A stretch of 64,000 nucleotides of DNA from assembly GCA_963923945.1 (NCBI GenBank), contig OZ000551.1, positions 335,671 to 399,670 of the forward strand. Reading direction: 5' to 3'. Of this stretch, positions 11,110 to 41,878 are shown piece after piece; the first letter of the stretch is position 1, and each line of letters opens with the position of its first letter. Position numbers and translations under genes: made by a program. The notes under the pieces are model-generated. The model saw nothing but the letters and a program-made list of their open reading frames with translations. It searched no databases and was not told where the DNA came from. Source of the stretch: Alphaproteobacteria bacterium (GTDB lineage Bacteria; Pseudomonadota; Alphaproteobacteria; G963923945).

Positions 11110-11155
11110 AAGGAACACGGCAACCGCCGCCCTTCGCCACCTTAAGAAAACCGTT

Positions 11156-15953: not shown

Positions 15954-16081
15954 CCTCACCCTATCCATACCGGTGATTGGATGCGATTGTCTCTTCAACC
16001 CGATGGTTGGAATTGTTGCTCATCATCGCCTCAGCATTCCTTTGCTGTTGTTTCATGATGATTGGGCCGATCCCTATACGA

Positions 16082-17458: not shown

Positions 17459-17497
17459 CTTGATCAAACATTATGGCGCACAGGAAGCAAAGCCTGG

Positions 17498-18880: not shown

Positions 18881-18893
18881 CACCAAAACGCAA

Positions 18894-19562
18894 TCATTCG
18901 GCCTGATGAACACCCAGAAGCGATAACATATCTTGGGCCCGAGCATAAATCCCCTGAGGGGTCAAGGAATCATCAATCAGCTGTTCAAAGATCTCAATCT
19001 GGAGAGTCCGATTGCCCTCACGCCCGGCCAGATAGGCCAGAAACTCACGGGCCGAAAAACGCCAAGGAGAGTTTTCAGCCGCCAGAGGCTCCAAAATCGC
19101 CCGCAATTCATCCGGATCGGCCGTATCCAACTCAACCATCGCCCGCAGCAATGTGGCCAAATCACGTAAAGATGAGTCATCGGTCTCATCCAATGACTGC
19201 AGATACAAACCAGACGCTGCATCCGCTTGCTGGTCATCAGCCAGGAGAGCCGCCTCTTGCATCATCGCCAATGTTGCGTATCCAGATCCTGGTGTGGCTT
19301 CGGCGGCCAGTTGCGAAAATTGCTCAGCAGCCAAGCGGGTGTTCCCTTCCGCAGCCAACTGCATAGCGATTGCGTAACGCTCTCCCCATGCGCGATCGCG
19401 CGCCTCACGATAAGACTGCCAACCAACCGCACCGCTGGTGGCAAGAATGACGAAGGCCGCCACCCCAATCACATAAGGCGCAACCAGTTTCCAGAGTTTA
19501 AGACGCTGCTCCTTCTTAAATTCCTCACTGACTTCACGCAAAAATTGATCACTCTCAGACAC
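18894..19562 (-). CDS. YfgM-like tetratricopeptide-repeat membrane protein (single N-terminal TM)
   Basis: N-terminus (FLREVSEEFKKEQRLKLWKLVAPYVIGVAAFVILA) with one TM, then Ala/Leu-rich TPR-like helices. Conserved upstream partner of bamB. Confidence 0.7.
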   Translation of the reverse strand: MSESDQFLREVSEEFKKEQRLKLWKLVAPYVIGVAAFVILATSGAVGWQSYREARDRAWGERYAIAMQLAAEGNTRLAAEQFSQLAAEATPGSGYATLAMMQEAALLADDQQADAASGLYLQSLDETDDSSLRDLATLLRAMVELDTADPDELRAILEPLAAENSPWRFSAREFLAYLAGREGNRTLQIEIFEQLIDDSLTPQGIYARAQDMLSLLGVHQAE

Positions 19563-19785
19563 GTCAAACCCTCAAAAACAGTGATGGATGAATAGCGATT
19601 GATTGAATGGATGGGTCGAAAACACAGTCGAAAACATAGTCTATGTATTCATGCTATATATTCATGGTCAGGAGATACAGCAATGACACAAGAGATTCCC
19701 AAACCGCTCCCCAACCAATATCTTGGCTATGAAACGGCGTTGTCACTGAACCCGAGAAGGGCAAAAAAACAAGGAAAATCATGGG

Positions 19786-20349
19786 TCAATGATTAGTCTG
19801 CCGCCACTTGATTGAACATCCAATGCTGGAAATTTGTTCCCGGGGTCCTTGCCCGGTTTGTGCAATCATCAGCATCGCCTCACGTAATTCCCGTTTGGTT
19901 CCAGGAGGACAAGGTTCACGCCCAGCCGCGTCCAAGCGTCCACGATATTGGAGGCCCAAATCGGCATTGAATCCAAAAAAATCCGGCGTACATATGGCCG
20001 CATAGGCGCGAGCGACATCTTGACTTTCATCAATCAGATAGGGAAAACCAAACCGGTGATCAGCCGCAAAACGGCCCATATTCTCAAAAGAATCATCGGG
20101 GTAAGTCTCAACATCATTGGACATAATCGCCAACGCCTTGACCCCATGATCACGCAAAAAATCGACATCCTCAACAATGCGATCAATCGCCGTACGCACA
20201 TAAGGGCAATGATTACAGATGAACATCACCAAGGTTGCGCTTTCACCAACATGGTCAGCCAGCCGGTAAGTATTGCCGTCAACACCAGGCAGGGAAAAAT
20301 CAACCGCTTGCCAACCAAAATCACAAACCGGATTCATCTGTTCAGCCAT
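19786..20349 (-). CDS. thioredoxin-fold protein (redoxin/peroxiredoxin-like thiol-disulfide oxidoreductase)
   Basis: CxxC motif in a thioredoxin-fold context (LVMFICNHCPYV), 187 aa. Confidence 0.65.
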   Translation of the reverse strand: MAEQMNPVCDFGWQAVDFSLPGVDGNTYRLADHVGESATLVMFICNHCPYVRTAIDRIVEDVDFLRDHGVKALAIMSNDVETYPDDSFENMGRFAADHRFGFPYLIDESQDVARAYAAICTPDFFGFNADLGLQYRGRLDAAGREPCPPGTKRELREAMLMIAQTGQGPREQISSIGCSIKWRQTNH

Positions 20350-20778
20350 TGTTTTTCTCTTGTTTTATTAAGAAACAATCAAACAATAAAAAAATAATCA
20401 GCCCGCTACATGCCGTTTATTGGCCACAATCAGCCGCAAGACAGTTTATGGGTCGGTAGAGCCTCACATTTTCAGCTTGGATTTCTCAGCTTGGATTTCT
20501 AATTGGCGTTCCAAATGGCAAGAAATTTGCTTAAAAAATCTATGCGTAAATATGCTTAAAAAATAAACCCATTTTTATAAACTGACTTTCTTATCAATCT
20601 TTATGAACCGATCCCTTTCATGTGCCAACCCTTTTATGGCTGTTTTATTCACGTGCCAACCTTTTTATGACTGTTTTTTATCGGCTATTTTTTATTGAGT
20701 ATAGAGTATCTTGACTCCGCATACAGCTCATAGCGTCATTGGATCATACCGTCTTTAGATTTTGGCAAGAGGCAGATT

Positions 20779-21462
20779 GTGATTAACTGCGAAAAAATGC
20801 TTCAGTATCGGCATTGCGTCCCCGCCGGTTTAGATGCGCAATCGCCGGTTGATCGGCGACTCCAAACCCGAAAGGGGCGGCGGCGGATTGGAGCGGTGGG
20901 GCTTTTGGTTGCCATCGCTCCTTTATGGAATGGTGGCTGCACACCGGTACAGGCGGTTATCCCGATTGCTGATACCGCCAATTACTTGGCTGAAGAACAA
21001 TTTATAACCGATAAATGGATATCCCAATGGTATGGCAAACAGTGCTCCTTGGCCAATTTTCTTGAAGATCGTGTCATGTGCCGTGACGCCCCACCGGACA
21101 AAATTGTCGCGCCGATTTATTGTTACAGCACCTTAGGGAAACCAGAATGCTTTGAATCTCCGGACCCATTCGACCCCAGACGGCCCCTGCTGGGTGGTTT
21201 GCCCCAACAGAGGCGACAAGCCGAACGCTATCAACAATATCTCAATACCGGGACACGTTGGCCTCTAAAACCGATTGGCCAAGCCGAAACAGCGTTACCA
21301 GCCGCCAAAAGTAACCCCATCAACAACGACACCATGCAAAACAACAATCCCAGAACCAACAACCGCGTCCCTGTTTTGAAAAATGATCTTCCGGATAATA
21401 CCATCGAGTCAGATTCAGTACCCGCCAGCCAGCCCGCTAAACGACCTCAGAACGACTCATAA
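20779..21462 (+). CDS. hypothetical secreted/lipoprotein with Cys-containing core and N/P/Q-rich C-terminal tail
   Basis: Basic n-region plus hydrophobic stretch ending GGC (RRRIGAVGLLVAIAPLWNGGCTP). Four Cys in the mature part. The low-complexity C-terminus lowers coding confidence. Confidence 0.4.
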   Translation: MINCEKMLQYRHCVPAGLDAQSPVDRRLQTRKGRRRIGAVGLLVAIAPLWNGGCTPVQAVIPIADTANYLAEEQFITDKWISQWYGKQCSLANFLEDRVMCRDAPPDKIVAPIYCYSTLGKPECFESPDPFDPRRPLLGGLPQQRRQAERYQQYLNTGTRWPLKPIGQAETALPAAKSNPINNDTMQNNNPRTNNRVPVLKNDLPDNTIESDSVPASQPAKRPQNDS

Positions 21463-21711
21463 TCTCGGTCTTTCCGCCCTTTTCCACCTATTCTTGCCAT
21501 TTTTTGCTCATATATTGAGCCAGAATAATCTCATCTGTGGAGCGGGAATAATGATGAGTCATTATCATTATTGAGATCAATCCCGATTTGCTGTTTTATT
21601 CTGCCATACTCTGTTCCTTTATTATTGCGATAACAGAAGATGGATCTCATGCGATCAGATGATCTGTTGGATGGGTAACGTTGAGAAAAGCGAGAGAGAG
21701 GCGCATGAATA

Positions 21712-21909
21712 ATGACCAAAAATGATCTCCGCGGCGTTGATTTGTCGAAAATCGCCGATGAAGACTTGACTCCCGAGCAAAAAGAAGAGTTAGCCCGCCG
21801 CTTTAAACGGTTTTTTCGAGTCTTGGATCAAAGCCGTCGCGAACAAGAAAAACGCAAAAAAAACCGCCACAAAAACCCACGTAAATGGATTCCTGGCCAG
21901 GATACATAA
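21712..21909 (+). CDS. small highly basic hypothetical protein (65 aa)
   Basis: ORF only. GAGG-like sequence upstream. Lys/Arg-rich C-terminus. Confidence 0.25.
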   Translation: MTKNDLRGVDLSKIADEDLTPEQKEELARRFKRFFRVLDQSRREQEKRKKNRHKNPRKWIPGQDT

Positions 21910-22057
21910 ACGATCAAGCAAAAGCAGTCCCCAAGATGGTTAATAGGACGGCCTCGCACTGCCCCAGCGCTTTTTGAAATGTTGGGGATACCGATAAATC
22001 CGGAGAGACTGCGGCGTTCATCTTTAATAAAACATCTCTCAATATTATTCTTATTAT

Positions 22058-22420
22058 CTATTCTTCGAGTGGATGCATATAGCTGGAATAACCCCTCTGG
22101 CCTTCTTTTGACGCCAGACGCTGCCGACCCATAACCCCGTTAAAGATATAATCGCGCCACCCTGAATCCCATTCAATAACCAGGCTGCCGCCTTCTGCCT
22201 CATGCCATTGCCCTTTCCAGCCTTCGGCATAATCGGTCATCGCTGTGCCGTCGGGATAGACATCAATCCGGTAGCTTCCGCCCCAAGAATCGGCGGTCTC
22301 CCAAGACCCTTCCCAACCGGCAAAGGCCGGAAAAGACAACCAAACAGCCAGCCCAAACGTGAAAAGACAAGACAAAACAAGGCCAGGCGGAGGTAAAAAT
22401 CTCTGTGAAAAAATGGTCAT
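22058..22420 (-). CDS. hypothetical small secreted Trp/Gly-rich protein
   Basis: Internal Met start gives signal peptide (LVLSCLFTFGLAVWLSFPAFA). Repeated W-x-G-x-W motifs (GWEGSWETADSWGGSY, GWKGQWHEAEGG, EWDSGWRDY). Confidence 0.4.
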   Translation of the reverse strand: MTIFSQRFLPPPGLVLSCLFTFGLAVWLSFPAFAGWEGSWETADSWGGSYRIDVYPDGTAMTDYAEGWKGQWHEAEGGSLVIEWDSGWRDYIFNGVMGRQRLASKEGQRGYSSYMHPLEE

Positions 22421-22614
22421 CAGATTGGATTCTTTCTTACTGAAGTCATTTTGTTGATCATCAATATCATTCATTAAAATCATGGTCAGATTAAGATCAT
22501 CACGGCATTGGATAGCATCATTCAAGGGTTGTCTTATAGCATCATCAGACAGAATGATCATGGGTTCTCACACGGCGCCGACAAAACCGCCCGATCATGG
22601 GATGATCAAACCCA

Positions 22615-25041
22615 TCACACCCTCCGTAAGGTCCCCCCGGTTGCATCGGCGACCGCCGCTTCGATAGACGCTGCGACATCATCAATCATGGCATCGGTGA
22701 GTGTCCCTTTACGGGGTTGCAAACGCACTGATAGGGCGACTGATTTTTTGCCTTTCGGGACTCCTTGATCGGTATAAATATCGAAAATTTCTACCCTGTC
22801 GACCAGATTTTTGCCGCCTTTACGGGCCGCAACCACCACATCGGCGGCTGGTGTTGCCTCATCCACCAAAAAAGCAAAATCACGCATGACCGGCTGATAC
22901 GCAGACACATGAAGAGCCGGACGGGATGGTTTTTTCTTTGCTATCGGGACAGCATCAATAAAAATTTCAAACGCCGCGGGCGACCCAGCCAAATCAAATG
23001 CTTTGGCAACCAAAGGATGGACAACACCAAATTGGGCCAAAATATTTCTCGGACCCCAACACAAACATCCCGATTGTCCAGGATGAAACCAATCCGGCCC
23101 TGGGGCTTGGGTTTTTAGCGTGTCAATCGTCACCCCGAGAGCTTTGAGCACCGCCAAAACATCGGCTTTAACATCAAACGCATTGACCGGACGGGCCGGA
23201 CCCGACCAATGCCGAGTGACCGCATCGCCAACCCGCAGACCGGATACCATTTTATGTTGTTGTCCCGGTTGACCACCGGTGAAAGCCGGCCCAATTTCAA
23301 ACAAGCCAAAATCAACCTGACCCCGCGCCAAGTTACGGGAGGCAGCAGCAATCAAAGAAGCCAGAGGAGTCGGGCGCAGCTGGTCAAGATTTTGGCTGAT
23401 CGGATTGAGAAGACGCAAATCCTCACCGCCACCACCAAACAGCTGGGCATGATCACAATCCATGAAAGACCAGTTGACCGTCTCCATCAAACCCCGTACC
23501 GCCAAAGCGCGGGCAACCCGGCCCAAGCGACCATAAGCCGGATCACCGGCCGGGCCAGGCAACCGGCCATCATGATTCATCGCTACCGCCGGAATGGCAT
23601 CAAAACCATGCACCCGCAAAATCTCCTCAACCAAATCGGCCTCACCGGCGATATCACCGCGCCAACTGGGTGGCGTCACCCGCCATATTGGTTCTTGATC
23701 ACTCTGGTTGTTTGAGGAGTCCAGATCACGGCTGGCAATTTCACAACCCAATGACTCGAGAATGGATCGGCATCGGGTTGCTGGCAGATCAATCCCGCCC
23801 AGAGCGGCCACCTTACCCGGACGCCAAGCAATCTCGCGGCGCCAATCGGGGGCCGATCCGGCCCTATAAGGTTTGCTGGCTTCACCGCCGCATAAATCGA
23901 TCATCATCGCTGTTGCGGCATCCATTCCTTGGCCCACGCTGGCCGGGTCAACGCCGCGCTCAAACCGGTAGCGGGCGCTTGTTTCAAGATGCAAAAGACG
24001 CCCTGTTGTCGCCGTACGGGTGGGATCAAAGCTGGCGCATTCCAGGATGACATCAGTGGTTGTCAATTCACAGCAACTGCTCTGGCCGCCGATGACACCG
24101 CCCAAACTCAGGATACCGTTTTCATCGGCAATCACGGTCATCCCGGCGGCTAATCGATATTCATGCCCATCCAGAGCGGCCAAGGTTTCCCCATCAAGAG
24201 ACGCCCGCACAGTCAAATCACCGGCAATCTTGGCGGCATCAAAAACATGCAGCGGCCGGGCCTGATCAATGGTCAGATAATTGGTCACATCAACCAAAGC
24301 CGAAATCGGTCGCAACCCGGCCGCCAACAGCCGTTCCTGAAGCCAAGCCGGGCTGGGACCATTTTTGACCCCGCGAATGAGCCGAATCTGAAATTCAGGA
24401 CAGGCCCGCCGATCATCAAGCTCCAGCCGAACCGCAACCGGGCAAGCAAATCCGGGCCGGGCTTGAGATACGGCAAGCGGCTTCAGTTCACCAAGACCGG
24501 CTGCGGCAAGATCACGGGCAATACCACGCACACCGGTGCAATCGGGTCGATTGGGGGTCAAAGCAATCTCAATAATCGGCCCGGCCCGGCCAAGCAGAGC
24601 TTGAGCAGCCGCCATACCCGGCTTGGAATCCCCATCAAGCTCAATAATGCCGTCATGATCATCCCCCAGGGCCAGTTCACGGGCTGAACACAGCATGCCT
24701 TGGCTTTCGACACCCCGGATGACACTGGCTTTGAGAATATGGCCATCGGCTGGAATCATGCTCCCCGGGGCGGCAAAGATACTCTTTAGTCCAACCCTTA
24801 CATTGGGAGCACCACACACCACCGCGACCAGCCCGGCCCCGGCCTCAACCGAACAAATACGCAAACGATCGGCATTGGGATGCGGCTCAACCGCCTGAAT
24901 TTCCCCGACCACCAAATCTTTCAGATTCGGCTCTTCAACCTTTTCAACCTCAAGACCAAGAGCGGTGAGGGTGGCGGTGATCTCAGCCAAACTGGCACCG
25001 GTTTCCAGATGATCCTTCAGCCAATCAAGGGAAAATCTCAC
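22615..25041 (-). CDS. pheT: phenylalanine--tRNA ligase beta subunit
   Basis: 808 aa. Conserved PheT N-terminus (MRFSLDWLKDHLE) and tRNA-binding domain. Overlaps pheS by 4 bp. Confidence 0.95.
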   Translation of the reverse strand: MRFSLDWLKDHLETGASLAEITATLTALGLEVEKVEEPNLKDLVVGEIQAVEPHPNADRLRICSVEAGAGLVAVVCGAPNVRVGLKSIFAAPGSMIPADGHILKASVIRGVESQGMLCSARELALGDDHDGIIELDGDSKPGMAAAQALLGRAGPIIEIALTPNRPDCTGVRGIARDLAAAGLGELKPLAVSQARPGFACPVAVRLELDDRRACPEFQIRLIRGVKNGPSPAWLQERLLAAGLRPISALVDVTNYLTIDQARPLHVFDAAKIAGDLTVRASLDGETLAALDGHEYRLAAGMTVIADENGILSLGGVIGGQSSCCELTTTDVILECASFDPTRTATTGRLLHLETSARYRFERGVDPASVGQGMDAATAMMIDLCGGEASKPYRAGSAPDWRREIAWRPGKVAALGGIDLPATRCRSILESLGCEIASRDLDSSNNQSDQEPIWRVTPPSWRGDIAGEADLVEEILRVHGFDAIPAVAMNHDGRLPGPAGDPAYGRLGRVARALAVRGLMETVNWSFMDCDHAQLFGGGGEDLRLLNPISQNLDQLRPTPLASLIAAASRNLARGQVDFGLFEIGPAFTGGQPGQQHKMVSGLRVGDAVTRHWSGPARPVNAFDVKADVLAVLKALGVTIDTLKTQAPGPDWFHPGQSGCLCWGPRNILAQFGVVHPLVAKAFDLAGSPAAFEIFIDAVPIAKKKPSRPALHVSAYQPVMRDFAFLVDEATPAADVVVAARKGGKNLVDRVEIFDIYTDQGVPKGKKSVALSVRLQPRKGTLTDAMIDDVAASIEAAVADATGGTLRRV

Positions 25042-26129
25042 GGTGATAAGCCCCCGATCATCGATGGGGTATCCAGCGGCGAAAATCCGTAATGGGCCAG
25101 CCAGCGCAGATCAGAATCAAAGAATGTCCGCAGATCAGCGATGCCGTATTTCAACATGGCGATCCGCTCAACCCCCAAACCAAAGGCAAAGCCTTGCCAG
25201 CGTTCCGGATCAATGCCGCAGGCGGTCAAGACATGGGGATGCACCATGCCGCACCCCATAATTTCTAACCAGTCCCCACCATCACCGATGGTCAAAACCC
25301 CCTCAGCACGGCTGCAGCCAATATCAACCTCAGCCGAAGGTTCGGTAAAGGGAAAAAAACTCGGCCGGAAGCGCAAAGGCAAATCATCAATCTCAAAAAA
25401 AGCCCGGCAAAATGCCGCAACACAGCCTTTGAGATGCCCCATATGTATTGATTCTTCAATAACCAGAGCCTCAATCTGATGAAACATCGGTGTATGGGTT
25501 ATATCCGAATCACTCCGATAGACCCGGCCTGGTGCGATTACCCGCAACGGCGGCGGGGTTTCTTGTAAAGTCCGAATCTGGACCGGTGAAGTATGGGTGC
25601 GCAAAACCGGCCGCTGGCCATCCGCACCAACCGGTAAATAAAAGGTATCATGCATCTGGCGGGCCGGATGATCAGCCGGAATATTGAGGGCGGTAAAATT
25701 ATGAAAATCATCCTCAATATCCGGACCCTCAACCACCTTGAAATGCATCTCACCCAAAATCGCCACCGCCTCATCAATGGTCTGGGTAATCGGATGGAGA
25801 CGGCCAATCTCAAATGCCTGGCGGGGCGGCATCAAAGAAGGATCAATCGATTCGGCGGCCAAGCGGCTATTGAGGTCACGGTACTCAATCGCGGCCTTGC
25901 GAGTCTGCAACTCTTGAGCAATATCTTCTTTGAGGATATTGAGTGCAGCCCCCCGTTCCCGGCGGGCTGCCGCATCCAAAGAACCGATGCCGCGCATGAG
26001 GGCCGACACTTCGCCTTTCTTACCCAAAATCTCAACCCGCACCGCCTCAATATCAGCCACGGTTTGGGCAGCATGAATGCGATCAAGAAGAGCGCGTTTT
26101 AAGGTGTCAAAATCAGTCATGAGTCGCAA
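25038..26129 (-). CDS. pheS: phenylalanine--tRNA ligase alpha subunit
   Basis: Class II aaRS motifs (RTHTSPVQIR, FRPSFFPFTEPSAEVD, GFAFGLGVERIAMLKYGI). Confidence 0.95.
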   Translation of the reverse strand: MRLMTDFDTLKRALLDRIHAAQTVADIEAVRVEILGKKGEVSALMRGIGSLDAAARRERGAALNILKEDIAQELQTRKAAIEYRDLNSRLAAESIDPSLMPPRQAFEIGRLHPITQTIDEAVAILGEMHFKVVEGPDIEDDFHNFTALNIPADHPARQMHDTFYLPVGADGQRPVLRTHTSPVQIRTLQETPPPLRVIAPGRVYRSDSDITHTPMFHQIEALVIEESIHMGHLKGCVAAFCRAFFEIDDLPLRFRPSFFPFTEPSAEVDIGCSRAEGVLTIGDGGDWLEIMGCGMVHPHVLTACGIDPERWQGFAFGLGVERIAMLKYGIADLRTFFDSDLRWLAHYGFSPLDTPSMIGGLSP

Positions 26130-26306
26130 CCGAGAAAGGATCAGCAGCGCAGAAAATCAGCAATGTGAAAGGGTCAGCAACGCAAATGCGGAACCGAAGA
26201 ATGGCTGTTCAAGGATTCGGGGACTGAATGAAGGAAATCCTCTCAAAAATCAACCATAGTGAACCAGCCTCTATCCTATAAAAGGGCCACCCAAACAACA
26301 ACCGGG

Positions 26307-26663
26307 TCAGTCGAGAGCTTTTTGAACCTCGGCGGCCAACACCGCGAAAGTTTCCGGTTCTCGAGCCGCCATATCAGCCAAAATTTTGCGATCAAGATCA
26401 ATACCCGCCCGTTTGACGCCGTTCATAAATTGGCAATAGGTCAGGCCATGCTGACGGGCCCCAGCATTGATGCGCTGAATCCACAAACCGCGAAAAAAGC
26501 GTTTGCGGGTCCGGCGATCACGATAGGCATATTGCCCGGCCCGCTCAACCGCTTGGACCGCGGTGCGGAAGGTGTTCTTGCGCCGTCCACGATACCCCTT
26601 GGCCTGTTTGATGATTTTTTTATGTCGGGCATGGGATGTCACACCCCGCATGATACGTGCCAT
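26307..26663 (-). CDS. rplT: 50S ribosomal protein L20
   Basis: 118 aa. Conserved L20 sequence ([29 protein letters not shown] ... [21 protein letters not shown]). Confidence 0.95.
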
Positions 26664-26666
26664 AGC

Positions 26667-26864
26667 TCACCCATAAGGCATAAAGGATTTCACAATACGG
26701 GCATCACAATCTTTCAAAATCATCGATGCCCGGGCTCTACGTTTCATTTTTTGGGGTCGTTTGATCATGCCGTGGCGTTTGCCCGCCGGTTTGGCACGCA
26801 GCTGACCCGAAGCGGTCAGGCGGAAGCGTTTTTTGGCACCGCTTTTTGTTTTGAGTTTCGGCAT
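26667..26864 (-). CDS. rpmI: 50S ribosomal protein L35
   Basis: Internal Met start [20 protein letters not shown] gives a canonical 65 aa L35. Confidence 0.9.
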
Positions 26865-27049
26865 AATCCATCCTTTATTTTTTACCAATGCCACGTTTTT
26901 TTGCCAAACGGTCTTTTTTTCCAGGCGATCTTTTTGCCAGGCGGCCATACCATTGGTATCAGCAACAGCGTGCCGGTTTATAGTCCCGTGTCACGAGAAT
27001 TGCAAGTCTATCGGGGGGGGTGTTTTTCAATACATTTCAGCAAACCGCC

Positions 27050-29803
27050 CTATGATGCCGATTGGCGGTCATCACCGCGGCTTTCCATGCGGAACGCCGC
27101 ATCAATCAGCCTGCGGGTATAGGGGTTTTTGGGGGCATCAAAAATATGTGCGGTTGGTCCCCGTTCAATCACCTGCCCGGCCCGCATGACCAGGATATCA
27201 TCGGCCAAAGCCCTGACCACTTTGAGATCATGGCTGATAAACAGATAGGCCAGATCATATTTTTCCTGCAATTCCCGTAACAGATCAATGATTTGGGCCT
27301 GAACCGAAACATCAAGGGCGCTGGTTGGCTCATCAAGAACCAGAAATTGCGGCTTTAAGATCAAGGCCCGGGCAATCGCCACCCGTTGGCGTTGACCACC
27401 GGAAAATTCATGGGGATAGCGGTCGCCATCAGCCGGCGATAAACCCACCTCCTCCAGAGCCTGATCAATCAGAGCCTGACCGGCTTGCGCATCCGTAGCC
27501 AGTTGATGAACCGCCAACCCTTCGCCGATGATTTCCCTGATCGAGAGGCGCGGATTGAGGGAGGCAAAAGGATCCTGGAAAACGATTTGCATTTGTCGGC
27601 GCAACGGCCGCAACGCTTTTGACCGGATCTGATCAATCGGTTGGCCATCAAAAAAGATCGAGCCACGACCCAAGCCCAGCCGCAACAACGCCAAAGCCAG
27701 CGATGTCTTGCCGCAACCACTCTCCCCGACAACCCCCAAGCTGCGGCCCGGTCGCAAAGCAAAATCCACCCCATCAACCGCTTTGACATAACCGTGAACG
27801 CGGCGCAAAAAACCGCGCTTGATCGGATGCCAGACCTTGAGATCCCGGGCTTCCAGAAGCGGTGCAGCAGAGCCAACCGGACGCGGCGGATGGGGTTGCG
27901 GTTCGCTGGCCAAAAGATGCCGGGTATAGGGATGGTTCGGTTGCACCAACACCGTTTCACGTTGACCGTTTTCGACAATCAAACCATGGCGCATGACATA
28001 GACTCGTTGGGCCATCTTGCGAACCACCGCCAAATCATGGGTGATCAGCAATAGAGCCATGCCGAGACGGCTTTGTAAGGCTTTAAGCAAATCAAGAATC
28101 TGAGCCTGAATGGTCACATCAAGGGCTGTGGTTGGCTCATCAGCAATCAGGAGATCCGGCTCATTGGCCAGAGCCATGGCAATCATCACCCGCTGACGCT
28201 GGCCACCGGAAAGCTCATGGGGATAGCTCTTCAAAAAACGCTCCCCATCACCAAGGCCCACCATATCCAGCAATTCAAGAATTCTGTGCCGCAGGGCCTC
28301 ATCGGCCAATTCACGATGCAAAATAAGGGCCTCACCGATTTGTTTTTCCACATTATGCAGAGGATTCAGCGATGTCATCGGTTCTTGAAAAATCATGCTG
28401 ATATGATTGCCACGTATCGTGTTCATCTCACCGGTCGGTGTGCCGATAATTTCTTGTCCCTCAAAACGAATGCTGCCGGAAGGGTGGCGGGCCCGGGGAT
28501 AGGGCAACAACTGCATGATAGACAAGGCAGTAACCGATTTTCCCGAACCACTCTCACCAACCAGGGCAACGGTTTCACCGCACCGGATATCAAAGGAAAC
28601 ACCCCGGACCGCTTCAACCACCGCCCCACCCGGCGGGGCAAAAACAACCCGTAAATCATCGACCGCAATCAATGGTGACCCCCCGGATATGGAGTCTTCG
28701 CCCTTGGTCTCTTTGGCATTCTTTTTATCACTATCCGATGATGTTTCGGTTTCCTTCCCGGCCAGACCGGTTCGGCGCGGATCAAAGGCATCTCGGGCCG
28801 CTTCACCGATGAAAACCAACAGACTGAGCATGAAAGCCAGAACGCAAAAAGCGGTGATGCCCAGCCAGGGAGCCTGAAGATTGGCTTTTCCTTGGGCCAG
28901 CATCTCACCAAGCGAAGGAGAGCCTGGCGGCAACCCAAACCCCAAAAAATCCAACGCGGTCAAGGTGGTGATGGAACCGCTGAGAATAAAAGGTAAGAAT
29001 GTCAATGTGGCGACCATGGCATTGGGAAGCAGATGCCGCACAATGATCACCGGGGTGGCCACCCCCAAAGCCCGGGCGGCCCGCACATATTCAAAATTAC
29101 GGGCCCGCAAAAATTCAGCCCGGACCACCCCCTCCAAGGCCATCCAGCTGAACAGCAACATGATGACCAGCAAGCTCCAAAAACCCGGCTCAATAAAGCT
29201 GGCCAAAATGATCAAAAGAAACAGGACCGGCAATCCCGCCCAAATTTCGATAAAACGCTGAAATAAAAGATCGGTCAACCCACCGAAATAGCCTTGGAGG
29301 GCTCCAGCAGCAATCCCCAGAATCGAGCTTGAAAGCGTCAACAACAAACCAAAAAGAATCGAGATACGAAACCCATAAATCAGACGCGCCAGAACATCAC
29401 GTCCCTGGTCATCGGTACCCAGCCAGTTATCGGCACTTGGTGCCGATGGTGCAGGCGTTGCGAGATCATAATTGATGGTATCATAAGAAAAAGGAATGAG
29501 CGGCCACAGCATCCATCCTCGATCTTGGATCAAATCAACCACAACAGGATCACGGTAATCGGCCTCACTCTCAAACTCACCGCCAAATATGGTCTCCGGA
29601 TAACGTTCCATAATCGGCGCATAAAAAGCCCCATCATAATAAACCAAAATCGGTTTATCATTGGCGATCAGCTCGGCAAACAAACTGACGATGAAAAGGG
29701 TTGTAAAGATGATGAAGCTGCCATAGCCGCGTTTGATGGATTTGAAATTAAGCCAACGACGGCGATTGAGAGGCGATAGATAGCGGGTTGTTGACAGGAC
29801 CAC
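27050..29803 (-). CDS. yejEF: fused peptide ABC transporter: OppC/YejE-type permease domain + tandem double ATPase (YejF/OppDF-type)
   Basis: Single 917 aa ORF. N-terminal roughly 345 aa is polytopic with the ABC permease EAA-loop region (YVRAARALGVATPVIIVRHLLPN). An acidic/Ser-rich linker (ETETSSDSDKKNAKETKGEDS) follows. Then two complete ABC ATPase cassettes (Walker A GESGSGKS twice, signatures LSGGQRQRV twice, Walker B LLIADEPTTALD and LVLDEPTSALD). Confidence 0.8.
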   Translation of the reverse strand: MVLSTTRYLSPLNRRRWLNFKSIKRGYGSFIIFTTLFIVSLFAELIANDKPILVYYDGAFYAPIMERYPETIFGGEFESEADYRDPVVVDLIQDRGWMLWPLIPFSYDTINYDLATPAPSAPSADNWLGTDDQGRDVLARLIYGFRISILFGLLLTLSSSILGIAAGALQGYFGGLTDLLFQRFIEIWAGLPVLFLLIILASFIEPGFWSLLVIMLLFSWMALEGVVRAEFLRARNFEYVRAARALGVATPVIIVRHLLPNAMVATLTFLPFILSGSITTLTALDFLGFGLPPGSPSLGEMLAQGKANLQAPWLGITAFCVLAFMLSLLVFIGEAARDAFDPRRTGLAGKETETSSDSDKKNAKETKGEDSISGGSPLIAVDDLRVVFAPPGGAVVEAVRGVSFDIRCGETVALVGESGSGKSVTALSIMQLLPYPRARHPSGSIRFEGQEIIGTPTGEMNTIRGNHISMIFQEPMTSLNPLHNVEKQIGEALILHRELADEALRHRILELLDMVGLGDGERFLKSYPHELSGGQRQRVMIAMALANEPDLLIADEPTTALDVTIQAQILDLLKALQSRLGMALLLITHDLAVVRKMAQRVYVMRHGLIVENGQRETVLVQPNHPYTRHLLASEPQPHPPRPVGSAAPLLEARDLKVWHPIKRGFLRRVHGYVKAVDGVDFALRPGRSLGVVGESGCGKTSLALALLRLGLGRGSIFFDGQPIDQIRSKALRPLRRQMQIVFQDPFASLNPRLSIREIIGEGLAVHQLATDAQAGQALIDQALEEVGLSPADGDRYPHEFSGGQRQRVAIARALILKPQFLVLDEPTSALDVSVQAQIIDLLRELQEKYDLAYLFISHDLKVVRALADDILVMRAGQVIERGPTAHIFDAPKNPYTRRLIDAAFRMESRGDDRQSAS

Positions 29804-29994
29804 GACCTCACATTACGCGTCTTTGGTCTGAAAAACTTTGGCCTAAAAGACGCATAATAATAATGGAAAATTGATAACCGGGTATAGAATAAGGAGATAC
29901 GTTAATATGTCAAAAATATGTTAAAATTTGAATGGACCTTCCTGTAGATGAACAACCCGGTAGTATGGGAACGTCTCTTAACCTTAGTGAGCAC

Positions 29995-31233
29995 TCAAGA
30001 AAAGTGAGCACTCAAGAAAACAAACTCAAAAAAACAATCCGTGATAGAGTGGTCATCGGGAACATGAAGCGATGCACGTTTCCAGGGGTCGGTATTGGGA
30101 ATGAACAAGCACAAAGCATTTTGCATGGTCATCCTCCGACAGGCGGCCGCTTGTTGAGCCAAATATCCAGTTGGGCACTGTGGCGCATTTTTGATCAGCT
30201 TCTCGGCAATTTGTTCCAATGTTTCAAAAAGTTCTTTTGTCTCTTTTGTCTCTTTGTGATCTTCATTGGCGTTGCCCCTGAGATTGTCGACCGTGTTATC
30301 GGCGTTGTTCTGCGCAGCATCATCGACATTGTTCCGGGATGATGGGGCAGTGTGGGTATTGAGACCAACAACATAGGTGTTGATATCACTCATTTGCTCC
30401 AGCAATTCGATGGCAGATGAAAAAGACGGTGCTTCGATACCAAACTCTTCCAAGAGCTTTTGTTTCAGCCGCAGGATTATTTCTTTGGTCATATGAGCAG
30501 CATCAACAACCGATTGATGAAATCCGGCCGAGGCGTGCTGGGTTGCTGAAAGAAATTTTTTCTGGGCGGGGTCCGTTGGACTGGATTCTGCTGAATTGGA
30601 TGAAATATCTGCCGATGGTTCTGATGAAATTTTCACCGATGGATCCCAAATTGCACGCGAACATTTTAATGTTGCCATTGAAAAGGGGTGTTCAGCCCAT
30701 GGTGATACAGGAGTGATTTCCCCGGCATAAGGACATAAATTGACCAATAAGAGAGGTTCGGGGAGTTTTTGTTCCAACCAAAAAAATGGTGCCAATCGCC
30801 GTTCTGGATCACCATGAACGGCGGGGTGGATATCATCCCAAAACATGGCGCAAAGATCGGCCAACAACTGCAGACCATCTTGAAGACCACGAAAACCATC
30901 GGTATGAAGGAGAGATACCGAAAACCAGATTGTGAGTAAGATATCTTTACTCTGATTCTCTAAAGCATCATGGCAAATAGATCGAACATGATTCCAGTCG
31001 GGTTTGATGAGATGTTCGCCATCAACCGCGGTCGCCGACAGTGATTTTCCCTTTACTATCTCCGTTTGAATTTGGTGATAGGCATCTTCATATCTTAAAT
31101 ATTTACCGGTCGACATTTCAGAGGAAATCGGTGCCAGAAGGGCCATCGGATCGAAAACCACATACCGAGATTCTTGGTTTAGGAATTTTTGACTGCTGTT
31201 GATCATGCGAAACTCCTGGAACCGATATGCCAT
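29995..31233 (-). CDS. tssA: type VI secretion system protein TssA-like (ImpA_N domain protein)
   Basis: N-terminal ImpA_N hallmarks (MALLAPISSEMSTGKYLRYEDAYHQIQTEI; DWNHVRSICHDALENQSKDILLTIWFSVSLLHTDGFRGLQDGLQLLADLCAMFWDDIHP). C-terminal conserved segment resembles short TssA proteins (PQCPTGYLAQQAAACRRMT). The true start is probably an internal Met (M10 or M30 of the ORF). Confidence 0.75.
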   Translation of the reverse strand: MAYRFQEFRMINSSQKFLNQESRYVVFDPMALLAPISSEMSTGKYLRYEDAYHQIQTEIVKGKSLSATAVDGEHLIKPDWNHVRSICHDALENQSKDILLTIWFSVSLLHTDGFRGLQDGLQLLADLCAMFWDDIHPAVHGDPERRLAPFFWLEQKLPEPLLLVNLCPYAGEITPVSPWAEHPFSMATLKCSRAIWDPSVKISSEPSADISSNSAESSPTDPAQKKFLSATQHASAGFHQSVVDAAHMTKEIILRLKQKLLEEFGIEAPSFSSAIELLEQMSDINTYVVGLNTHTAPSSRNNVDDAAQNNADNTVDNLRGNANEDHKETKETKELFETLEQIAEKLIKNAPQCPTGYLAQQAAACRRMTMQNALCLFIPNTDPWKRASLHVPDDHSITDCFFEFVFLSAHFS

Positions 31234-31248
31234 GTTGCGGAAATATGA

Positions 31249-32298
31249 TCATGGATGGATGACCTCCAATTGTCGTTGATGATTTTCAGCCGCAACCGCG
31301 ATAATCAATGGTCTGGTGATCCACTCTTCCCGCATGATGATGCGGAAACTCTCTTCACGGTTTTCAAAAGCGTGGATTTTGTAGTGTCCGCCGATAATTT
31401 CCTCGAGAGCTGCCCGGATATGGATGCCAACCTCTTGGAAACAGAGGTAACTCTCTTGGTGATCAAATGGTTTGAGAGTCGGGGGTGCTTCCTGGTCACG
31501 AAGATGGTCGATATGTCCAAGGATGGCACATAAATCCAGATAGATATGAAAAGGATGGGGATTGGCTTTTAATCGGGCATCAGCCACCAGTAATCCCGCA
31601 GATAGGGATTGAACAAAAAACCGGTATTCGAGTTTGCTAATTCTGTTGGTGGGCTTTGAATCGCGACGGTTTTCCACCAATCTCCATATGGCTTTCCGGA
31701 TATCCGAGAGGATAGCATCAATGTAACGCCATTGATCACTATTGGTCTCAATTTGTAGAGTCGGCGGGAAGTAATCAGTTTGCGAAAATCGCCCTTGTTG
31801 GCATCGAATACGTGCAATGATGAGTCGGTTCCCTAACGCCTCGCCTTGGTCAAGAATGGCAAGATTGATCGGTGATTTATAGACTGTAATGGGGGCGGTT
31901 TGGTCGCTGGATTCGGTGATTTGGATTTCCGTAAAATCTTGGTATGCACCATCATCGGCCGATGTCTTACCGATACAGATATTCAGCTCTTCGCCGTTGG
32001 TTTTATCGGTTGGTAACGTAATACTCATCGGCGTTTGTTGAGAATCGCTACGTATGATTTGTCAATCGGGAAGAACGGCATCAGCCACAACAAGGGTAAA
32101 GACTCCTTGCGGAATCGTATCGGCATCAATTTTGTAGGAATGGACTCCCCAGGGAAAAGGGATGGCACTGGCGGTGTGGTGGAAGGCAACATTGGCCAGC
32201 CGACTGGTGAGATGATTCATGTGCCCAGCAGAGAGCATCATCCCATCTTGCCAAAAAATTTCCTGATCAAGATTGGTTGGCTCAATCAATGTTCGCAA
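31249..32298 (-). pseudogene. tssK: type VI secretion baseplate protein TssK-like, interrupted by an in-frame TGA (at 32062-32064) and C-terminally short
   Basis: Upstream ORF (78 aa) has a TssK-like N-terminus (IFWQDGMMLSAGHMNHLTSRLA). The same reading frame continues after a TGA with a 259 aa ORF containing a TssK-like HPYxLYLxLCxL motif (NPHPFHIYLDLCAILGHIDHL). The combined length of about 349 aa is shorter than canonical TssK (about 445 aa). Confidence 0.55.
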
Positions 32299-32928
32299 GC
32301 CCTATCATCTTTTGTCTTTTGTTGTCTTTTGAACATTCATTCTTCAAGTCCATTTCACCGATATGACGGTGACGACACGAATGTTACGACGGAACCATAT
32401 TTTTTGTCGTGCCTGGCATCATAGAGAAACTTTCACAGCCAAAAATACCATATTCATGGGACAACCGGAGAGTCCCCGACATGATCAAGGGTCGCGCATG
32501 ACTGCCCGAATGTGAGGACTATGATCATTATGTTTGTCCCGGAGTCTGTCCGATTGAACGTCATGAACAGACCAGATGTGAAGCTATGGGTGCCGTTCTC
32601 TCAAGGAGAGAGTGGTGCTTGATGCATAACCGGATACAAACAAATGAGCCCGCATCATGGCTCTTAGCAGGATGAAAAATTGGGTGATTCTTTTAGGAGA
32701 AGACTCCTTTTTCCTCGGCGCTTGATCATAAATGTCAGCCGCTTGATTTTCTGGTTGCCAAATTCTTTGATTGACTGTCGGGCCATGCCTGCAGAAAGCC
32801 GCACATCTGTATTATCAAGCAGCACCGCACCGGGCCTGAAGCAAGGTCTGGACTTCGAGTCTCAGCACAACGACAAGCATCGGTGCGTATGGATGATTGG
32901 CTTTTTGAGTGTCGGCTTTTATTGGCTT

Positions 32929-32973
32929 AGCAGACCATTTCATGTCTCCCCTTTTAGGAGAGACATGAAATGG
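32929..32973 (-). terminator. perfect 16-bp inverted repeat (hairpin) immediately downstream of yejB
   Basis: accatttcatgtctcc-cctttt-aggagacatgaaatggt. No clear U-tract follows on the minus strand, so it may be a structural or regulatory hairpin rather than an intrinsic terminator. Confidence 0.35.
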
Positions 32974-32986
32974 TTAATCCCATCGC

Positions 32987-34120
32987 CTAATATTTATCTT
33001 GACTTTCGAAATCGATACGCGGGTCAACCAGGACATAAACCAAGTCATTGATCAATTTAAGAACCAAACCAAACAGAGTAAAAATATATAAGGTTCCAAA
33101 CATAACCGGGTAATCACGGCCCAAAGCCGCCTCAAAGCCCAGCAGCCCCAGACCATCGAGTGAAAAAATGACCTCAATCAATAAAGACCCGGTAAACAGA
33201 ATACTGAGAAAAGCACCCGGAAAACCCGAAATGACAATCAGCATGGCGTTGCGGAAAACATGGCCATAAAGCACCCGGTTTTCGGTCAAACCCTTGGCCC
33301 GGGCGGTCATGACGTATTGCTTGTTGATTTCTTCAAGAAAAGAATTCTTGGTCAGCATAGTCAAGCTGGCAAACCCACCCACAACCATCGCGGTCACCGG
33401 CAAACAAATATGCCAGAAATAATCAAGAATGCGGGCCGACCAACTCAGCTCTTCCCAATCGGGAGAAGTGAGGCCGCGTAAAGGAAAAATATCCAGAAAG
33501 CTGCCCCCGGCAAACAGGACAATCAATAAAATAGCAAACAAAAAACCGGGGATGGCATAGCCGATAATCACCACCGCCGAGCTCCAAAGGTCAAACCGGC
33601 TGCCGTCAAGAACCGCTTTGCGCACACCCAACGGAATTGACACACAATACACCAGGAGGGTTGTCCAAAGACCCAGCGAAATGGAAACCGGCATCTTATC
33701 AATGATCAAGTCAATCACCGCCCGGTCACGGTAAAAACTCTCGCCAAAATCGAACAACACATAATTTTTGAGCATCAGCCAAAAACGCTCAATAGCCGGT
33801 TTATCAAAACCATATTGCTTCTCAAGATCAGCAATCAAAGCTGGGTCAATGCCCCGTGACCCGCGGTATTTATCGCTCACCGCCGAACCACCCGATGATG
33901 CTTGACCGCGTAAATCGCCGCCATCAGCACCCGAAAGGCGGGCGGTGAGATCAATGTTTGTGCCCTTGAGTTCAGCCAGAACCCGCTCCACCGGACCACC
34001 GGGTGCAGCCTGAACAATCACAAAATTAACGATTAAAATCCCCAGCAGTGTCGGAATGATCAACAGCATCCGACGCAGAATATAGGCGACCATATGGTGA
34101 TACCCCCAAGCTGAAAACAA
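32987..34120 (-). CDS. yejB: peptide ABC transporter permease (YejB/OppB/DppB family)
   Basis: 377 aa. N-terminal TM ([32 protein letters not shown]) typical of OppB-type permeases. EAA loop region ([26 protein letters not shown]). Confidence 0.85.
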
Positions 34121-41558: not shown

Positions 41559-41656
41559 TCGGGAGGCCGCCCACGGACGGTCATCTCGCCAACCCGGTCA
41601 GGTCCGGAAGGAAGCAGCCGTAACGAGTTTTGCCCGGGTCGTTGGTGCGGTCTCTC
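41559..41656 (+). ncRNA. ffs: signal recognition particle RNA (4.5S RNA)
   Basis: Contains the near-invariant SRP domain IV sequence GGUCAGGUCCGGAAGGAAGCAGCC. The 5' (gggaggccgcccacgg) and 3' (ggtgcggtctctc) ends can pair. A T-rich tract follows. It lies immediately upstream of dnaX as in many bacteria. Confidence 0.8.
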
Positions 41657-41878
41657 ATCTTTTATTTTTGAATATCCATTAACATTTTTGAACATCCATT
41701 AACAACGTACCCCATAAAAATGATTGGGCCATTGATACGTTATGCCCTTTTGAACGGTGATATGTTTTTAAGAATGGGAAAATCTTATCGCAATCTTATC
41801 AATGGTCTTTTATTGTTGGCTTTATTCCATTGAGACAATCAGAATGATGCGATCAGTTCTCTTTGCTTATGCCACCCC

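What the first reader, a model, noticed from the sequence alone, without database searches (positions are those of the whole stretch)
32029..32064. In-frame TGA splits the tssK-like reading frame; the protein also lacks the C-terminal head region
The 78-aa TssK-like N-terminal ORF and the 259-aa downstream ORF are in the same frame, separated by a single TGA (...VLPD*QIIRSDSQQTPMSITL...).
- Both halves carry TssK-like motifs, so this is one gene with either a nonsense mutation, a sequencing error, or a recoded stop.
- Even read through, it is about 100 aa shorter than canonical TssK, which suggests loss of the receptor-binding head domain.
- Together these point to ongoing pseudogenisation of a T6SS remnant, or a minimal shoulder-only TssK.
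Basis: seen in the sequence. Interest (0 to 1): 0.55.

Follow-up and report, generated by a model that had tools for sequence, protein, structure and literature searches.

The report
Decaying remnant of a T6SS island
The stop codon inside the tssK-like gene looks like a real inactivating point mutation in the leftover of a type VI secretion gene island that this genome has mostly deleted, so this is an ordinary, recent pseudogene.

Summary
On the minus strand, one tssK reading frame (TTG start 32289, end 31249) is interrupted by one in-frame TGA at 32064-32062.

The only close orthologue (82% identical, ENA metagenome contig) is intact. It has GGA (Gly) at that codon, in a conserved A-V-L-P-D-G motif, so the stop is a single G-to-T change.

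The missing C-terminus is also real. A 2.1 kb deletion removed the last 86 tssK codons together with almost all of the next gene, a tssL-tssM fusion.

In the relative, tssK opens an 18.3 kb T6SS island inserted between the yejB and yejEF transporter genes. The window keeps only 3.2 kb of it: broken tssK and an intact tssA. A second deletion of about 12.9 kb removed sheath, tube, baseplate, spike, regulator and PAAR-like genes. A third related genome has the empty site.

TGA is the commonest normal stop in the window, there is no SECIS-like hairpin, and the orthologous residue is Gly. Recoding is therefore excluded.

dN/dS (0.20) and relative-rate tests show no acceleration, so the decay is recent.

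Interest is low.

The parts
31249..32289 (-). tssK pseudogene. It has a TTG start at 32289-32287 and 75 sense codons before the premature TGA. After the TGA come 267 codons homologous to TssK, then 3 junction-derived codons (I-H-P) and a new TGA stop at 31251-31249.
   Evidence: Translation. Pfam PF05936 on both halves. 82% identity to the intact orthologue P0001. A profile of the family matches solved TssK shoulder and neck domains at E 5e-23.
32062..32064 (-). Premature stop codon TGA at codon 76. It replaces Gly of the conserved A-V-L-P-D-G motif in the N-terminal shoulder domain. It is a single G-to-T change relative to GGA in the orthologue, and the next base is C.
   Evidence: Codon-by-codon comparison. 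Gly at this column in 8 of 9 other TssK sequences. The position aligns to IMPDG of PDB 5y0e TssK.
31255..31262 (-). Junction of deletion 1. Relative to the orthologous island, 2,117 bp are missing: the last 86 codons of tssK and all but the last ~50 nt of the tssL-tssM fusion gene.
   Evidence: blastn: window 31260 aligns to L001 10979, and window 31255 aligns to L001 13097. Junction read base by base. Exact string located.
31207..31254 (-). Leftover 3' end of the deleted tssL-tssM gene (about 16 codons), now non-coding spacer between the tssK pseudogene and tssA.
   Evidence: DNA alignment to L001 13097-13145. tblastn of the relative's TssLM residues 615-636 hits window 31271-31206 at E 0.003.
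29995..31206 (-). tssA (ImpA_N domain), an intact 403-codon frame. The probable start is the ATG at 31206, which matches the orthologue's start. The ORF list's 412-aa version starts 27 nt upstream, inside the tssLM leftover.
   Evidence: Pfam PF06812, 103.7 bits. 66-69% aa identity to the relative's TssA, with all 5 indels in frame and dN/dS 0.21. No rate acceleration against outgroup L004.
29924..29994 (-). Junction region of deletion 2. About 12.9 kb of the relative's island is missing here: tssB-tssC fusion, hcp, tssE, tssF, tssG, vgrG, a GerE/LuxR regulator, DUF4280 (PAAR-like) and four unknown genes. It is replaced by ~70 nt that do not align.
   Evidence: blastn against the merged relative contig: window 30054 aligns to rel 14244, and window 29923 aligns to rel 27136. 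tblastn of all island proteins finds none in the window.
32290..32986 (-). Left arm of the island: non-coding DNA between yejB and tssK. It does not align to the relative except for a 71-bp block (32470-32400, 90% identical). That block holds the operator-like motif TGTCCCATGAATATGG (32463-32448).
   Evidence: The same 16-mer lies upstream of tssK in the unrelated locus L004, where it is part of the palindrome TGTCCCAT-GAAT-ATGGGACA next to a GerE-family regulator gene.
32987..34120 (-). yejB-like ABC permease: the left flank of the island insertion site.
   Evidence: Pfam BPD_transp_1. 95% aa identity to the relative. In locus L003 its stop lies 4 bp from the yejEF start.
27050..29803 (-). 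yejE-yejF fusion (permease plus duplicated ATPase): the right flank of the island insertion site. A promoter-like site lies upstream at 29913-29886.
   Evidence: Pfam. Orthologues P0004 (89%) and P0005 (84%). Promoter-like TTGACA-16-TATTCT, conserved in the relative.

Best explanation
This is a recently inactivated tssK, sitting in the decaying remnant of a horizontally acquired type VI secretion (T6SS) island.

**History**
- An ancestor of this genome and of its closest known relative carried a compact T6SS island of about 18 kb, inserted exactly between yejB and yejEF of an ABC-transporter operon.
- In the window's lineage three lesions accumulated:
  1. A 2.1 kb deletion fused codon 343 of tssK to the last ~50 nt of tssL-tssM. 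This removed two thirds of the TssK head domain and the membrane-complex gene it binds.
  2. A deletion of about 12.9 kb removed sheath, tube, baseplate, spike, PAAR-like, regulator and putative effector genes.
  3. A G-to-T transversion turned Gly76 (GGA) of the conserved PDG motif into TGA.

**Consequence**
- Translation from the TTG start ends after 75 residues.
- Rare read-through (the context is TGA-C) or re-initiation at the ATG at 32028 would still give a protein without a complete head domain. It would have no TssF/TssG, TssL/M, sheath or tube to work with.
- The locus therefore cannot build a T6SS.

**What is shown and what is inferred**
- Shown: the stop, both deletions, the intact orthologue, the full island, the empty site, and the normal use of TGA as a stop.
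- Inferred: the order of the events, that they are recent, and that the remnant is not expressed usefully.
For: **The stop and the orthologue**
- One frame, one internal TGA.
- Both halves match TssK (PF05936), and the family profile matches solved TssK structures at E 5e-23.
- The intact 82%-identical orthologue has GGA at that codon.
- That Gly is conserved in 8 of 9 further family members.

**The island and the deletions**
- The orthologue's contig has tssK, tssL::tssM, tssA, tssB::tssC, hcp, tssE, tssF, tssG, vgrG and more between yejB and yejEF.
- The same gene order occurs in an unrelated genome, L004.
- The window lacks relative positions 10980-13096 and about 14283-27135.
- No other island protein matches anywhere in the window.
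- A third related genome (L003) has yejB and yejEF 4 bp apart, which is the empty site.

**Genetic code**
- TGA terminates 20 of 42 long ORFs in the window.

**Timing**
- tssK dN/dS is 0.20 with no indel in 343 codons, against 0.05-0.15 for flanking genes.
- Lineage-specific amino-acid changes are balanced, as in the controls:

| Gene | Window-specific | Relative-specific |
|---|---|---|
| tssK (outgroup P0123) | 11 | 10 |
| tssK (outgroup P0124) | 7 | 8 |
| tssA | 15 | 18 |
| yejA (control) | 35 | 32 |
| yejB (control) | 5 | 5 |
| yejEF (control) | 34 | 29 |

This fits inactivation late on the window's branch.
Against: - No reads are available, so a base-call error at 32064 cannot be excluded.
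- tssK and tssA show no measurable relaxation of constraint, and tssA is fully intact. That is expected for very recent decay, but it is also what continued function of the remnant would give.
- Only 64 kb of a 2.1 Mb genome was searched, so a second T6SS elsewhere in the genome is not excluded.
- Only one close orthologue exists in the searched collections, so polarity at the TGA rests on it plus distant homologues.
Confidence: 0.87

Rival explanations
1. Sequencing or assembly error. The true base at 32064 (minus strand) is G, so the codon is GGA and tssK has no internal stop. The gene is then only 3'-truncated.
For: - A single-base difference from the orthologue's GGA is all that separates the two states.
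- The flanking codons are conserved, and the gene shows no other sign of decay: no indel in 343 codons and dN/dS 0.20.
Against: - The site is not in a homopolymer (GAT TGA CAA). Indel errors cluster in homopolymers, and substitution errors are rare in finished single-contig assemblies (general knowledge).
- The public annotation of the same genome also starts its protein after the stop (P0002, 259 aa, from a 2,099,932-bp contig), so the deposited sequence carries the same base.
- The gene is disabled by the 2.1 kb deletion in any case.
Confidence: 0.07
2. The remnant is still used. A truncated TssK (shoulder and neck, made by read-through or as two pieces) together with the intact TssA has been kept for some role outside a complete T6SS, or serves a second T6SS elsewhere in the genome.
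For: - tssA keeps a 403-codon open frame despite 25% nucleotide divergence and five in-frame indels, with dN/dS 0.21.
- Neither gene evolves faster in the window's lineage than in the lineage with the full island.
- The 71-bp promoter/operator-like block upstream of tssK is 90% conserved in DNA that otherwise does not align.
- TGA followed by C is a leaky stop context in E. coli (general knowledge).
Against: - The stop removes a conserved motif residue at codon 76.
- The ATG-initiated 259-aa piece would lack the N-terminal residues that bind TssG in EAEC TssK (PMC6300606).
- The head domain's partner TssL/M and the island's GerE-family regulator are deleted.
- No full-length family member lacks the head: the top representatives listed are about 420-490 aa (a few shorter, partial-looking entries appear further down), apart from this genome's own fragment.
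- The balanced rates are equally explained by recent decay.
Confidence: 0.05
3. Recoded stop. The TGA is read as an amino acid: selenocysteine, Gly as in genetic code 25, or programmed read-through.
For: - The orthologous residue is Gly, and code 25 reads UGA as Gly, which is a coincidence worth checking.
- There is a precedent for rescue of an interrupted T6SS gene by recoding: transcriptional frameshifting in Citrobacter rodentium tssM (PMC4256274).
Against: - TGA is the most frequent terminator of long ORFs in the window (20 of 42), and long genes are open under code 11.
- The 65 nt after the TGA fold no better than shuffles (z = -0.96; 32 of 200 shuffles fold as well).
- The homologous position is Gly or Ser, never Cys, in relatives.
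- No tRNA gene at all lies in the window.
- The Citrobacter case is a slippery poly-A tract, not a substitution.
Confidence: 0.01

Closest known systems
TssK (Pfam PF05936 T6SS_VasE; e.g. EAEC Sci-1 TssK, PDB 5M30/5MWN/6N38)
   Same: - N-terminal W-x-D-G-M motif and PDG motif.
- The shoulder and neck region aligns to residues 8-324 of EAEC TssK by profile (E 7e-22).
- The orthologue is 429 aa, against 445 aa for EAEC TssK.
- It is encoded next to tssL/tssM and tssA in the ancestral island.
   Different: - The family is very divergent. The next relatives are at 41% and 35% identity, and the rest at 29% or less.
- A single-sequence search against PDB is only marginal (E 0.09).
- The window copy has a stop at codon 76 and lacks the last 86 residues.
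Degraded or remnant T6SS clusters in other bacteria (for example loss of T6SS clusters in laboratory E. coli, bioRxiv 10.1101/2025.02.08.637259; patchy gain and loss of T6SS clusters in P. aeruginosa, PMC11751169)
   Same: - A horizontally acquired T6SS cluster is lost piecemeal by large deletions and point mutations.
- Presence, absence and partial states are seen among close relatives.
   Different: - The three states here are one locus in three uncultured genomes of about 2.1 Mb, and the island splits the yejABEF operon.
- The cited works were seen only as titles, abstracts or short passages. The comparison is therefore general.
Interrupted tssM of Citrobacter rodentium rescued by transcriptional frameshifting (PMC4256274)
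   Same: A core T6SS gene carries a premature interruption inside an otherwise conserved frame.
   Different: - There, the rest of the cluster is intact and a slippery tract restores the frame.
- Here, the lesion is a base substitution to TGA, there is no slippery tract, and most of the cluster is deleted.

Membership tests
TssK (PF05936, T6SS baseplate protein) | Significant match to the family profile | tested here: met
   - C piece: 60.5 bits against a cutoff of 23.4.
- N piece: 22.8 bits, just below the cutoff.
- Intact orthologue: 93.8 bits over profile positions 15-397.
TssK (PF05936, T6SS baseplate protein) | Homology to solved TssK shoulder (beta-sandwich) and neck (helical) domains | tested here: met
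   A profile of 10 family members matches 6n38, 5y0e, 5m30 and 5mwn at E 5e-23 to 8e-22, chain residues 8-324. No structure was predicted here.
TssK (PF05936, T6SS baseplate protein) | Complete open reading frame including the C-terminal head domain that binds TssL/TssM | tested here: not met
   There is a TGA at codon 76. The frame ends at residue 343 of 429 because of a 2.1 kb deletion. It is a pseudogene of the family, not a working member.
Functional T6SS gene cluster | Presence of the core genes tssB, tssC, hcp, tssE, tssF, tssG, vgrG, tssL and tssM beside tssK and tssA | tested here: not met
   tblastn of all the relative's island proteins against the 64 kb window finds only tssK, tssA and a 22-codon tail of tssLM. 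The rest of the 2.1 Mb genome could not be searched.
Selenoprotein gene / UGA recoding | SECIS hairpin just downstream of the UGA; Cys or Sec at the homologous position; or UGA not used as a stop in the genome | tested here: not met
   - Fold z-score is -0.96.
- The homologous residue is Gly.
- TGA ends 20 of 42 long ORFs.
Pseudogene (recently inactivated) | Disabling lesion relative to intact orthologues | tested here: met
   Nonsense codon and 3' truncation, against an intact orthologue and full-length distant homologues.
Pseudogene (recently inactivated) | Relaxed selection (raised dN/dS or faster lineage-specific change) | tested here: inconclusive
   - dN/dS is 0.20, against 0.05-0.15 in flanking genes.
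- Relative-rate counts are balanced: 11 v 10 and 7 v 8.
- This is compatible with very recent inactivation. By a rough estimate of mine, the gene has been neutral for under about 15% of the window's branch.
Pseudogene (recently inactivated) | The lesion is real in the DNA, not a sequencing error | not testable with these tools
   No reads are available. The deposited annotation of the same genome begins its protein after the stop (P0002).

The most novel reading that the evidence does not exclude
The intact tssA, perhaps together with a read-through or two-piece shoulder-neck TssK, is kept under purifying selection as an orphan module with a role outside a complete T6SS. It is not simply waiting to decay.

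A separate novelty lies in the ancestral island, seen intact in the relative and in L004. It may be an undescribed compact T6SS subtype with these features:
- fused TssB-TssC;
- TssL fused to only the N-terminal part of TssM;
- no ClpV or TssJ in the cluster.
Probability: 0.07. Interest if true: 0.5.

Novelty: new member of a known kind. Interest (0 to 1): 0.2.

Why it matters
For this genome the result is an annotation point.
- The 259-aa "TssK" protein and the tssA gene should not be read as evidence of a working T6SS.
- tssK should be marked as a pseudogene, with a TTG start, a premature TGA and a 3' deletion.

More generally, the locus gives a clean three-state series at one chromosomal site in close relatives: the empty site, the full 18 kb island, and a 3 kb remnant. 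This dates the loss as recent and shows how a secretion island is shed from a small (2.1 Mb) genome: by a few large deletions plus point mutations.

It also shows that the yejABEF operon tolerated being split. None of this is surprising to a specialist.

Tried and rejected
**Searches that found nothing**
1. Two scans of the species-representative genome collection for relatives of this TssK. Neither the window's own genome nor a relative is in that collection, so the organism could not be named.
2. An exact-pattern scan around the TGA and a peptide-pattern scan of JGI metagenomes. There are no further orthologues, so no population-level check of the TGA was possible.
3. An exact-sequence look-up of the window's own 259-aa protein and 412-aa TssA ORF. 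This gave no contig record, accession or name.
4. Remnants of other island genes in the 3.4 kb region, searched at very permissive thresholds. The result was only noise, apart from the tssLM tail.
5. Literature searches for natural TssB-TssC or TssL-TssM fusions. Nothing relevant turned up.

**Ideas tested and rejected**
6. Selenocysteine or recoding. Rejected on the fold, the codon usage and the Gly orthologous residue.
7. Relaxed selection. dN/dS and relative-rate tests gave no clear signal. I read this as recent decay rather than as evidence of function.
8. Known RNA families. The whole-window Rfam search found none in the intergenic DNA, only SRP RNA elsewhere.

**Not attempted**
9. Structure prediction. 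Only two usable sequences could be submitted, and profile matches to solved TssK already settled the homology.

Full report
**1. The observation**

The gene is on the minus strand. Translating window 32310-31249 (-) gives a single frame reading ...FTLVVADAVLPD*QIIRSDSQQTPMSITLPTD..., ending ...QRQLEVIHP*. The internal stop is TGA at 32064-32062, followed by C. The mechanical ORF list shows the two pieces in one frame, 32062..32298 (78 aa) and 31249..32028 (259 aa).

Both pieces hit Pfam PF05936 (T6SS_VasE = TssK) in colinear order:
- N piece: profile positions 15-53, 22.8 bits, just under the 23.4 cutoff.
- C piece: profile positions 85-343 of 429, 60.5 bits.

Its coordinates cover the TGA and the 11 codons up to the ATG that gene callers use for the 259-aa protein.

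**2. The intact orthologue**

A search of 5.8 billion proteins found only two relatives:
- the 259-aa piece itself (P0002, from a 2,099,932-bp NCBI/ENA contig, evidently this genome);
- P0001, 412 aa and 82% identical, from an ENA metagenome contig of 106 kb.

P0001 aligns across the stop without any gap for 326 residues. At the stop, the window reads GAT TGA CAA and the relative reads GAT GGA CAA, which is one G-to-T transversion.

The 17 residues upstream of P0001's annotated Met are identical in both genomes (IEPTNLDQEIFWQDGM, after the start codon). The only start candidate shared by both is a TTG, at window 32289-32287. The ancestral protein therefore had 429 residues, and the stop is codon 76.

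An exhaustive HMMER scan of 1.84 billion representatives shows that this TssK lineage is isolated. The next relatives are at 41% and 35% identity and the rest at 29% or less. The top hits listed are full-length proteins of about 420-490 aa, with a few shorter entries further down the list. In an alignment with eight of them, the codon-76 Gly lies in a conserved A-[VI]-[LMF]-P-D-G motif: Ala and Pro are invariant, and Gly is present in 8 of the 9 other sequences. The motif aligns to IMPDG of the solved TssK 5y0e.

**3. The missing C-terminus is a deletion**

P0001 continues for 86 residues after ...QRQLEV. tblastn finds no trace of those residues in any frame of the window.

DNA alignment shows the breakpoints. 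Window 31260 corresponds to L001 10979, and window 31255 corresponds to L001 13097. So 2,117 bp are absent. Read base by base, the junction is GAGGTCA|TCCATCCATGA. It adds three codons (I-H-P) and a new TGA.

The lost segment holds the end of tssK and almost the whole next gene. That gene is a 636-aa fusion of DotU (TssL) with the N-terminal domain of IcmF (TssM). Its last ~50 nt survive at window 31254-31207.

A family profile aligns to residues 8-324 of EAEC TssK (5m30) at E 7e-22. [quoted passage not shown] By this alignment the head begins near residue 300 of the 429-aa form. The window's frame thus keeps shoulder, neck and about 43 head residues, and lacks the remaining two thirds of the head along with the head's binding partner.

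**4. The surroundings: a T6SS island in three states**

*The full island.* In the relative's contig the genes run as follows: inositol monophosphatase, yejA-like binding protein, yejB-like permease, then tssK, tssL::tssM, tssA, tssB::tssC (778 aa), hcp, tssE, tssF, tssG, vgrG, a 107-aa protein, a GerE/LuxR regulator, DUF4280 (PAAR-like) and three unknowns, then the yejE-yejF fusion, rpmI, rplT and pheST. The island is 18.3 kb.

*The remnant.* The window has the same flanks, at 82-95% amino-acid identity, but only 3.2 kb between yejB and yejEF:
- 0.7 kb of non-coding DNA;
- the tssK pseudogene;
- tssA.

Besides the 2.1 kb deletion, about 12.9 kb after tssA is gone. Window 30054 corresponds to rel 14244, and window 29923 to rel 27136. 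None of the relative's other island proteins matches anywhere in the 64 kb window.

*The empty site.* A third, slightly more distant genome (L003, a 2.07 Mb contig; its yejEF is 84% identical) has the yejB stop and the yejEF start 4 bp apart.

*Mobility.* The same island gene order occurs in an unrelated context (next to pnp and rpsO) in NCBI assembly GCA_021772895.1 (L004). The island is therefore a mobile, conserved unit. The tssK-tssLM-tssA order is ancestral, and the window's tssK-tssA adjacency is derived.

**5. Recoding and artefact**

- TGA ends 20 of 42 long ORFs in the window, and long genes are open under code 11.
- The 65 nt downstream of the TGA fold no better than shuffles (z = -0.96).
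- The homologous residue is Gly, not Cys.
- No tRNA gene lies in the window.

Selenocysteine, code 25 and other reassignments are therefore excluded as far as sequence allows.

A base-call error cannot be excluded without reads. However, the site is not a homopolymer, the deposited annotation carries the same stop, and the deletions disable the gene regardless.

**6. Timing**

Nei-Gojobori estimates between the window and the relative:

| Gene | dN/dS |
|---|---|
| tssK, whole | 0.20 |
| tssK, before the stop | 0.10 |
| tssK, after the stop | 0.22 |
| tssA | 0.21 |
| Seven flanking genes | 0.05-0.15 |

dS is about 0.5-0.9. tssK has no indel in 343 codons.

Amino-acid relative-rate counts:

| Gene | Window-specific | Relative-specific |
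|---|---|---|
| tssK (outgroup P0123) | 11 | 10 |
| tssK (outgroup P0124) | 7 | 8 |
| tssA (outgroup L004 TssA) | 15 | 18 |
| yejA (control) | 35 | 32 |
| yejB (control) | 5 | 5 |
| yejEF (control) | 34 | 29 |

There is no acceleration in the window's lineage. My inference is that all three lesions are recent relative to the split from the relative. A rough calculation puts neutral evolution at under about 15% of the window's branch.

The same data are also what continued selection on the remnant would give. I keep that as a low-probability rival. It is weakened by three points:
- the stop destroys a conserved motif;
- the ATG-initiated piece would lack the N-terminal residues that bind TssG (PMC6300606);
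- all partners and the island's regulator are deleted.

**7. How it works, or fails to**

Translation from the TTG ends after 75 residues. Read-through at TGA-C or re-initiation would give a TssK without a complete head domain, in a cell that, on the evidence of this window, has no sheath, tube, baseplate wedge, spike or membrane complex. The locus cannot assemble a T6SS.

A 71-bp block upstream of tssK (32470-32400) remains 90% identical to the relative, within DNA that otherwise does not align. It contains TGTCCCATGAATATGG. In L004 this motif is part of a perfect palindrome, TGTCCCAT-GAAT-ATGGGACA, next to a GerE-family regulator gene. I infer that this is the island's operator and promoter region. 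The window has lost the regulator gene, which argues (by inference only) against useful expression.

yejEF has its own promoter-like site (TTGACA-16-TATTCT, 29913-29886), conserved in the relative. That would explain how the split transporter operon still functions.

**8. Comparison with what is known, and verdict**

The gene is a pseudogenised member of the TssK family. Profile and structural-homology criteria are met, and the intact-frame, head-domain and cluster-context criteria are not. Piecemeal loss of T6SS clusters is well known. This case is a new instance, nicely documented by the empty, full and remnant series, but not a new kind of thing. Interest is low (0.2).

The only items that might deserve separate attention are the unusual compact island of the relative and the intact orphan tssA.

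Noticed in passing
L001 8965-21239 and L002 1-10000 (relative's contig); L004 5040-18203: The intact island is a compact T6SS with unusual fusions. TssB and TssC form one 776-778 aa protein (VipA+VipB+VipB_2). TssL is fused to only the N-terminal domain of TssM (635-636 aa, with no periplasmic part). No ClpV or TssJ gene lies in the cluster. The gene order is the same in two unrelated genomic contexts. Fused TssB-TssC proteins of 640-860 aa are common in the protein database, including a 683-aa one named from Pseudomonas aeruginosa. Literature searches found no description of such fusions.
   Followed up: partly
L003 8893-12754: A related 2.07 Mb genome has the empty insertion site. The yejB stop and the yejEF start are 4 bp apart, with no trace of the island.
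   Followed up: yes
window 32400-32470 (motif at 32448-32463); L001 9711-9781; L004 5564-5579: A 71-bp block upstream of tssK is 90% conserved between the window and the relative, in intergenic DNA that otherwise does not align. Its core, TGTCCCATGAATATGG, recurs upstream of tssK in L004 as the palindrome TGTCCCAT-GAAT-ATGGGACA, beside a GerE/LuxR-family gene. It is probably the island's operator.
   Followed up: partly
window 32935-32973, minus strand: A strong hairpin lies 14 nt after the yejB stop. It has 17-nt arms (CCATTTCATGTCTCTCC / GGGGAGACATGAAATGG) and a 5-nt loop, with no T-run after it. It is not found elsewhere in the window or in the relative. Its function is unknown.
   Followed up: partly
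window 29987-30016, minus strand: A 13-nt repeat, CTTGAGTGCTCAC, occurs twice with a 17-nt period at the end of tssA. The tssA stop codon lies inside the second copy. The window's TssA consequently has a different, 12-residue longer C-terminus than the relative's. It sits next to the junction of the 12.9 kb deletion.
   Followed up: no
window 29886-29913, minus strand: A promoter-like site (TTGACA, 16 nt, TATTCT) lies about 85 nt upstream of yejEF. It is conserved in the relative (TTGACA ... TATGCT). It may drive yejEF now that the island separates it from yejAB.
   Followed up: no
window 27050-29803, minus strand: yejE (permease) and yejF (duplicated ATPase) are fused into one 917-aa protein. 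This fused form is widespread: 7,961 of the 8,000 candidates scored reached E <= 1e-100, and the best 120 listed are about 885-960 aa, several named YejF/YejE by JGI.
   Followed up: no
window 32238 and 32289; window 31206 and 31233; L001 9950-10001: Gene starts are probably mis-called. The conserved TssK N-terminus requires a TTG start 17 codons upstream of the ATG used for P0001. The longest tssA ORF (412 aa) starts inside the tssLM leftover, whereas the orthologous start is the ATG at 31206.
   Followed up: yes
window 41562-41658, plus strand: Bacterial small SRP RNA (Rfam RF00169, 69.8 bits) is the only Rfam family found in the window. No tRNA genes occur in 64 kb.
   Followed up: no
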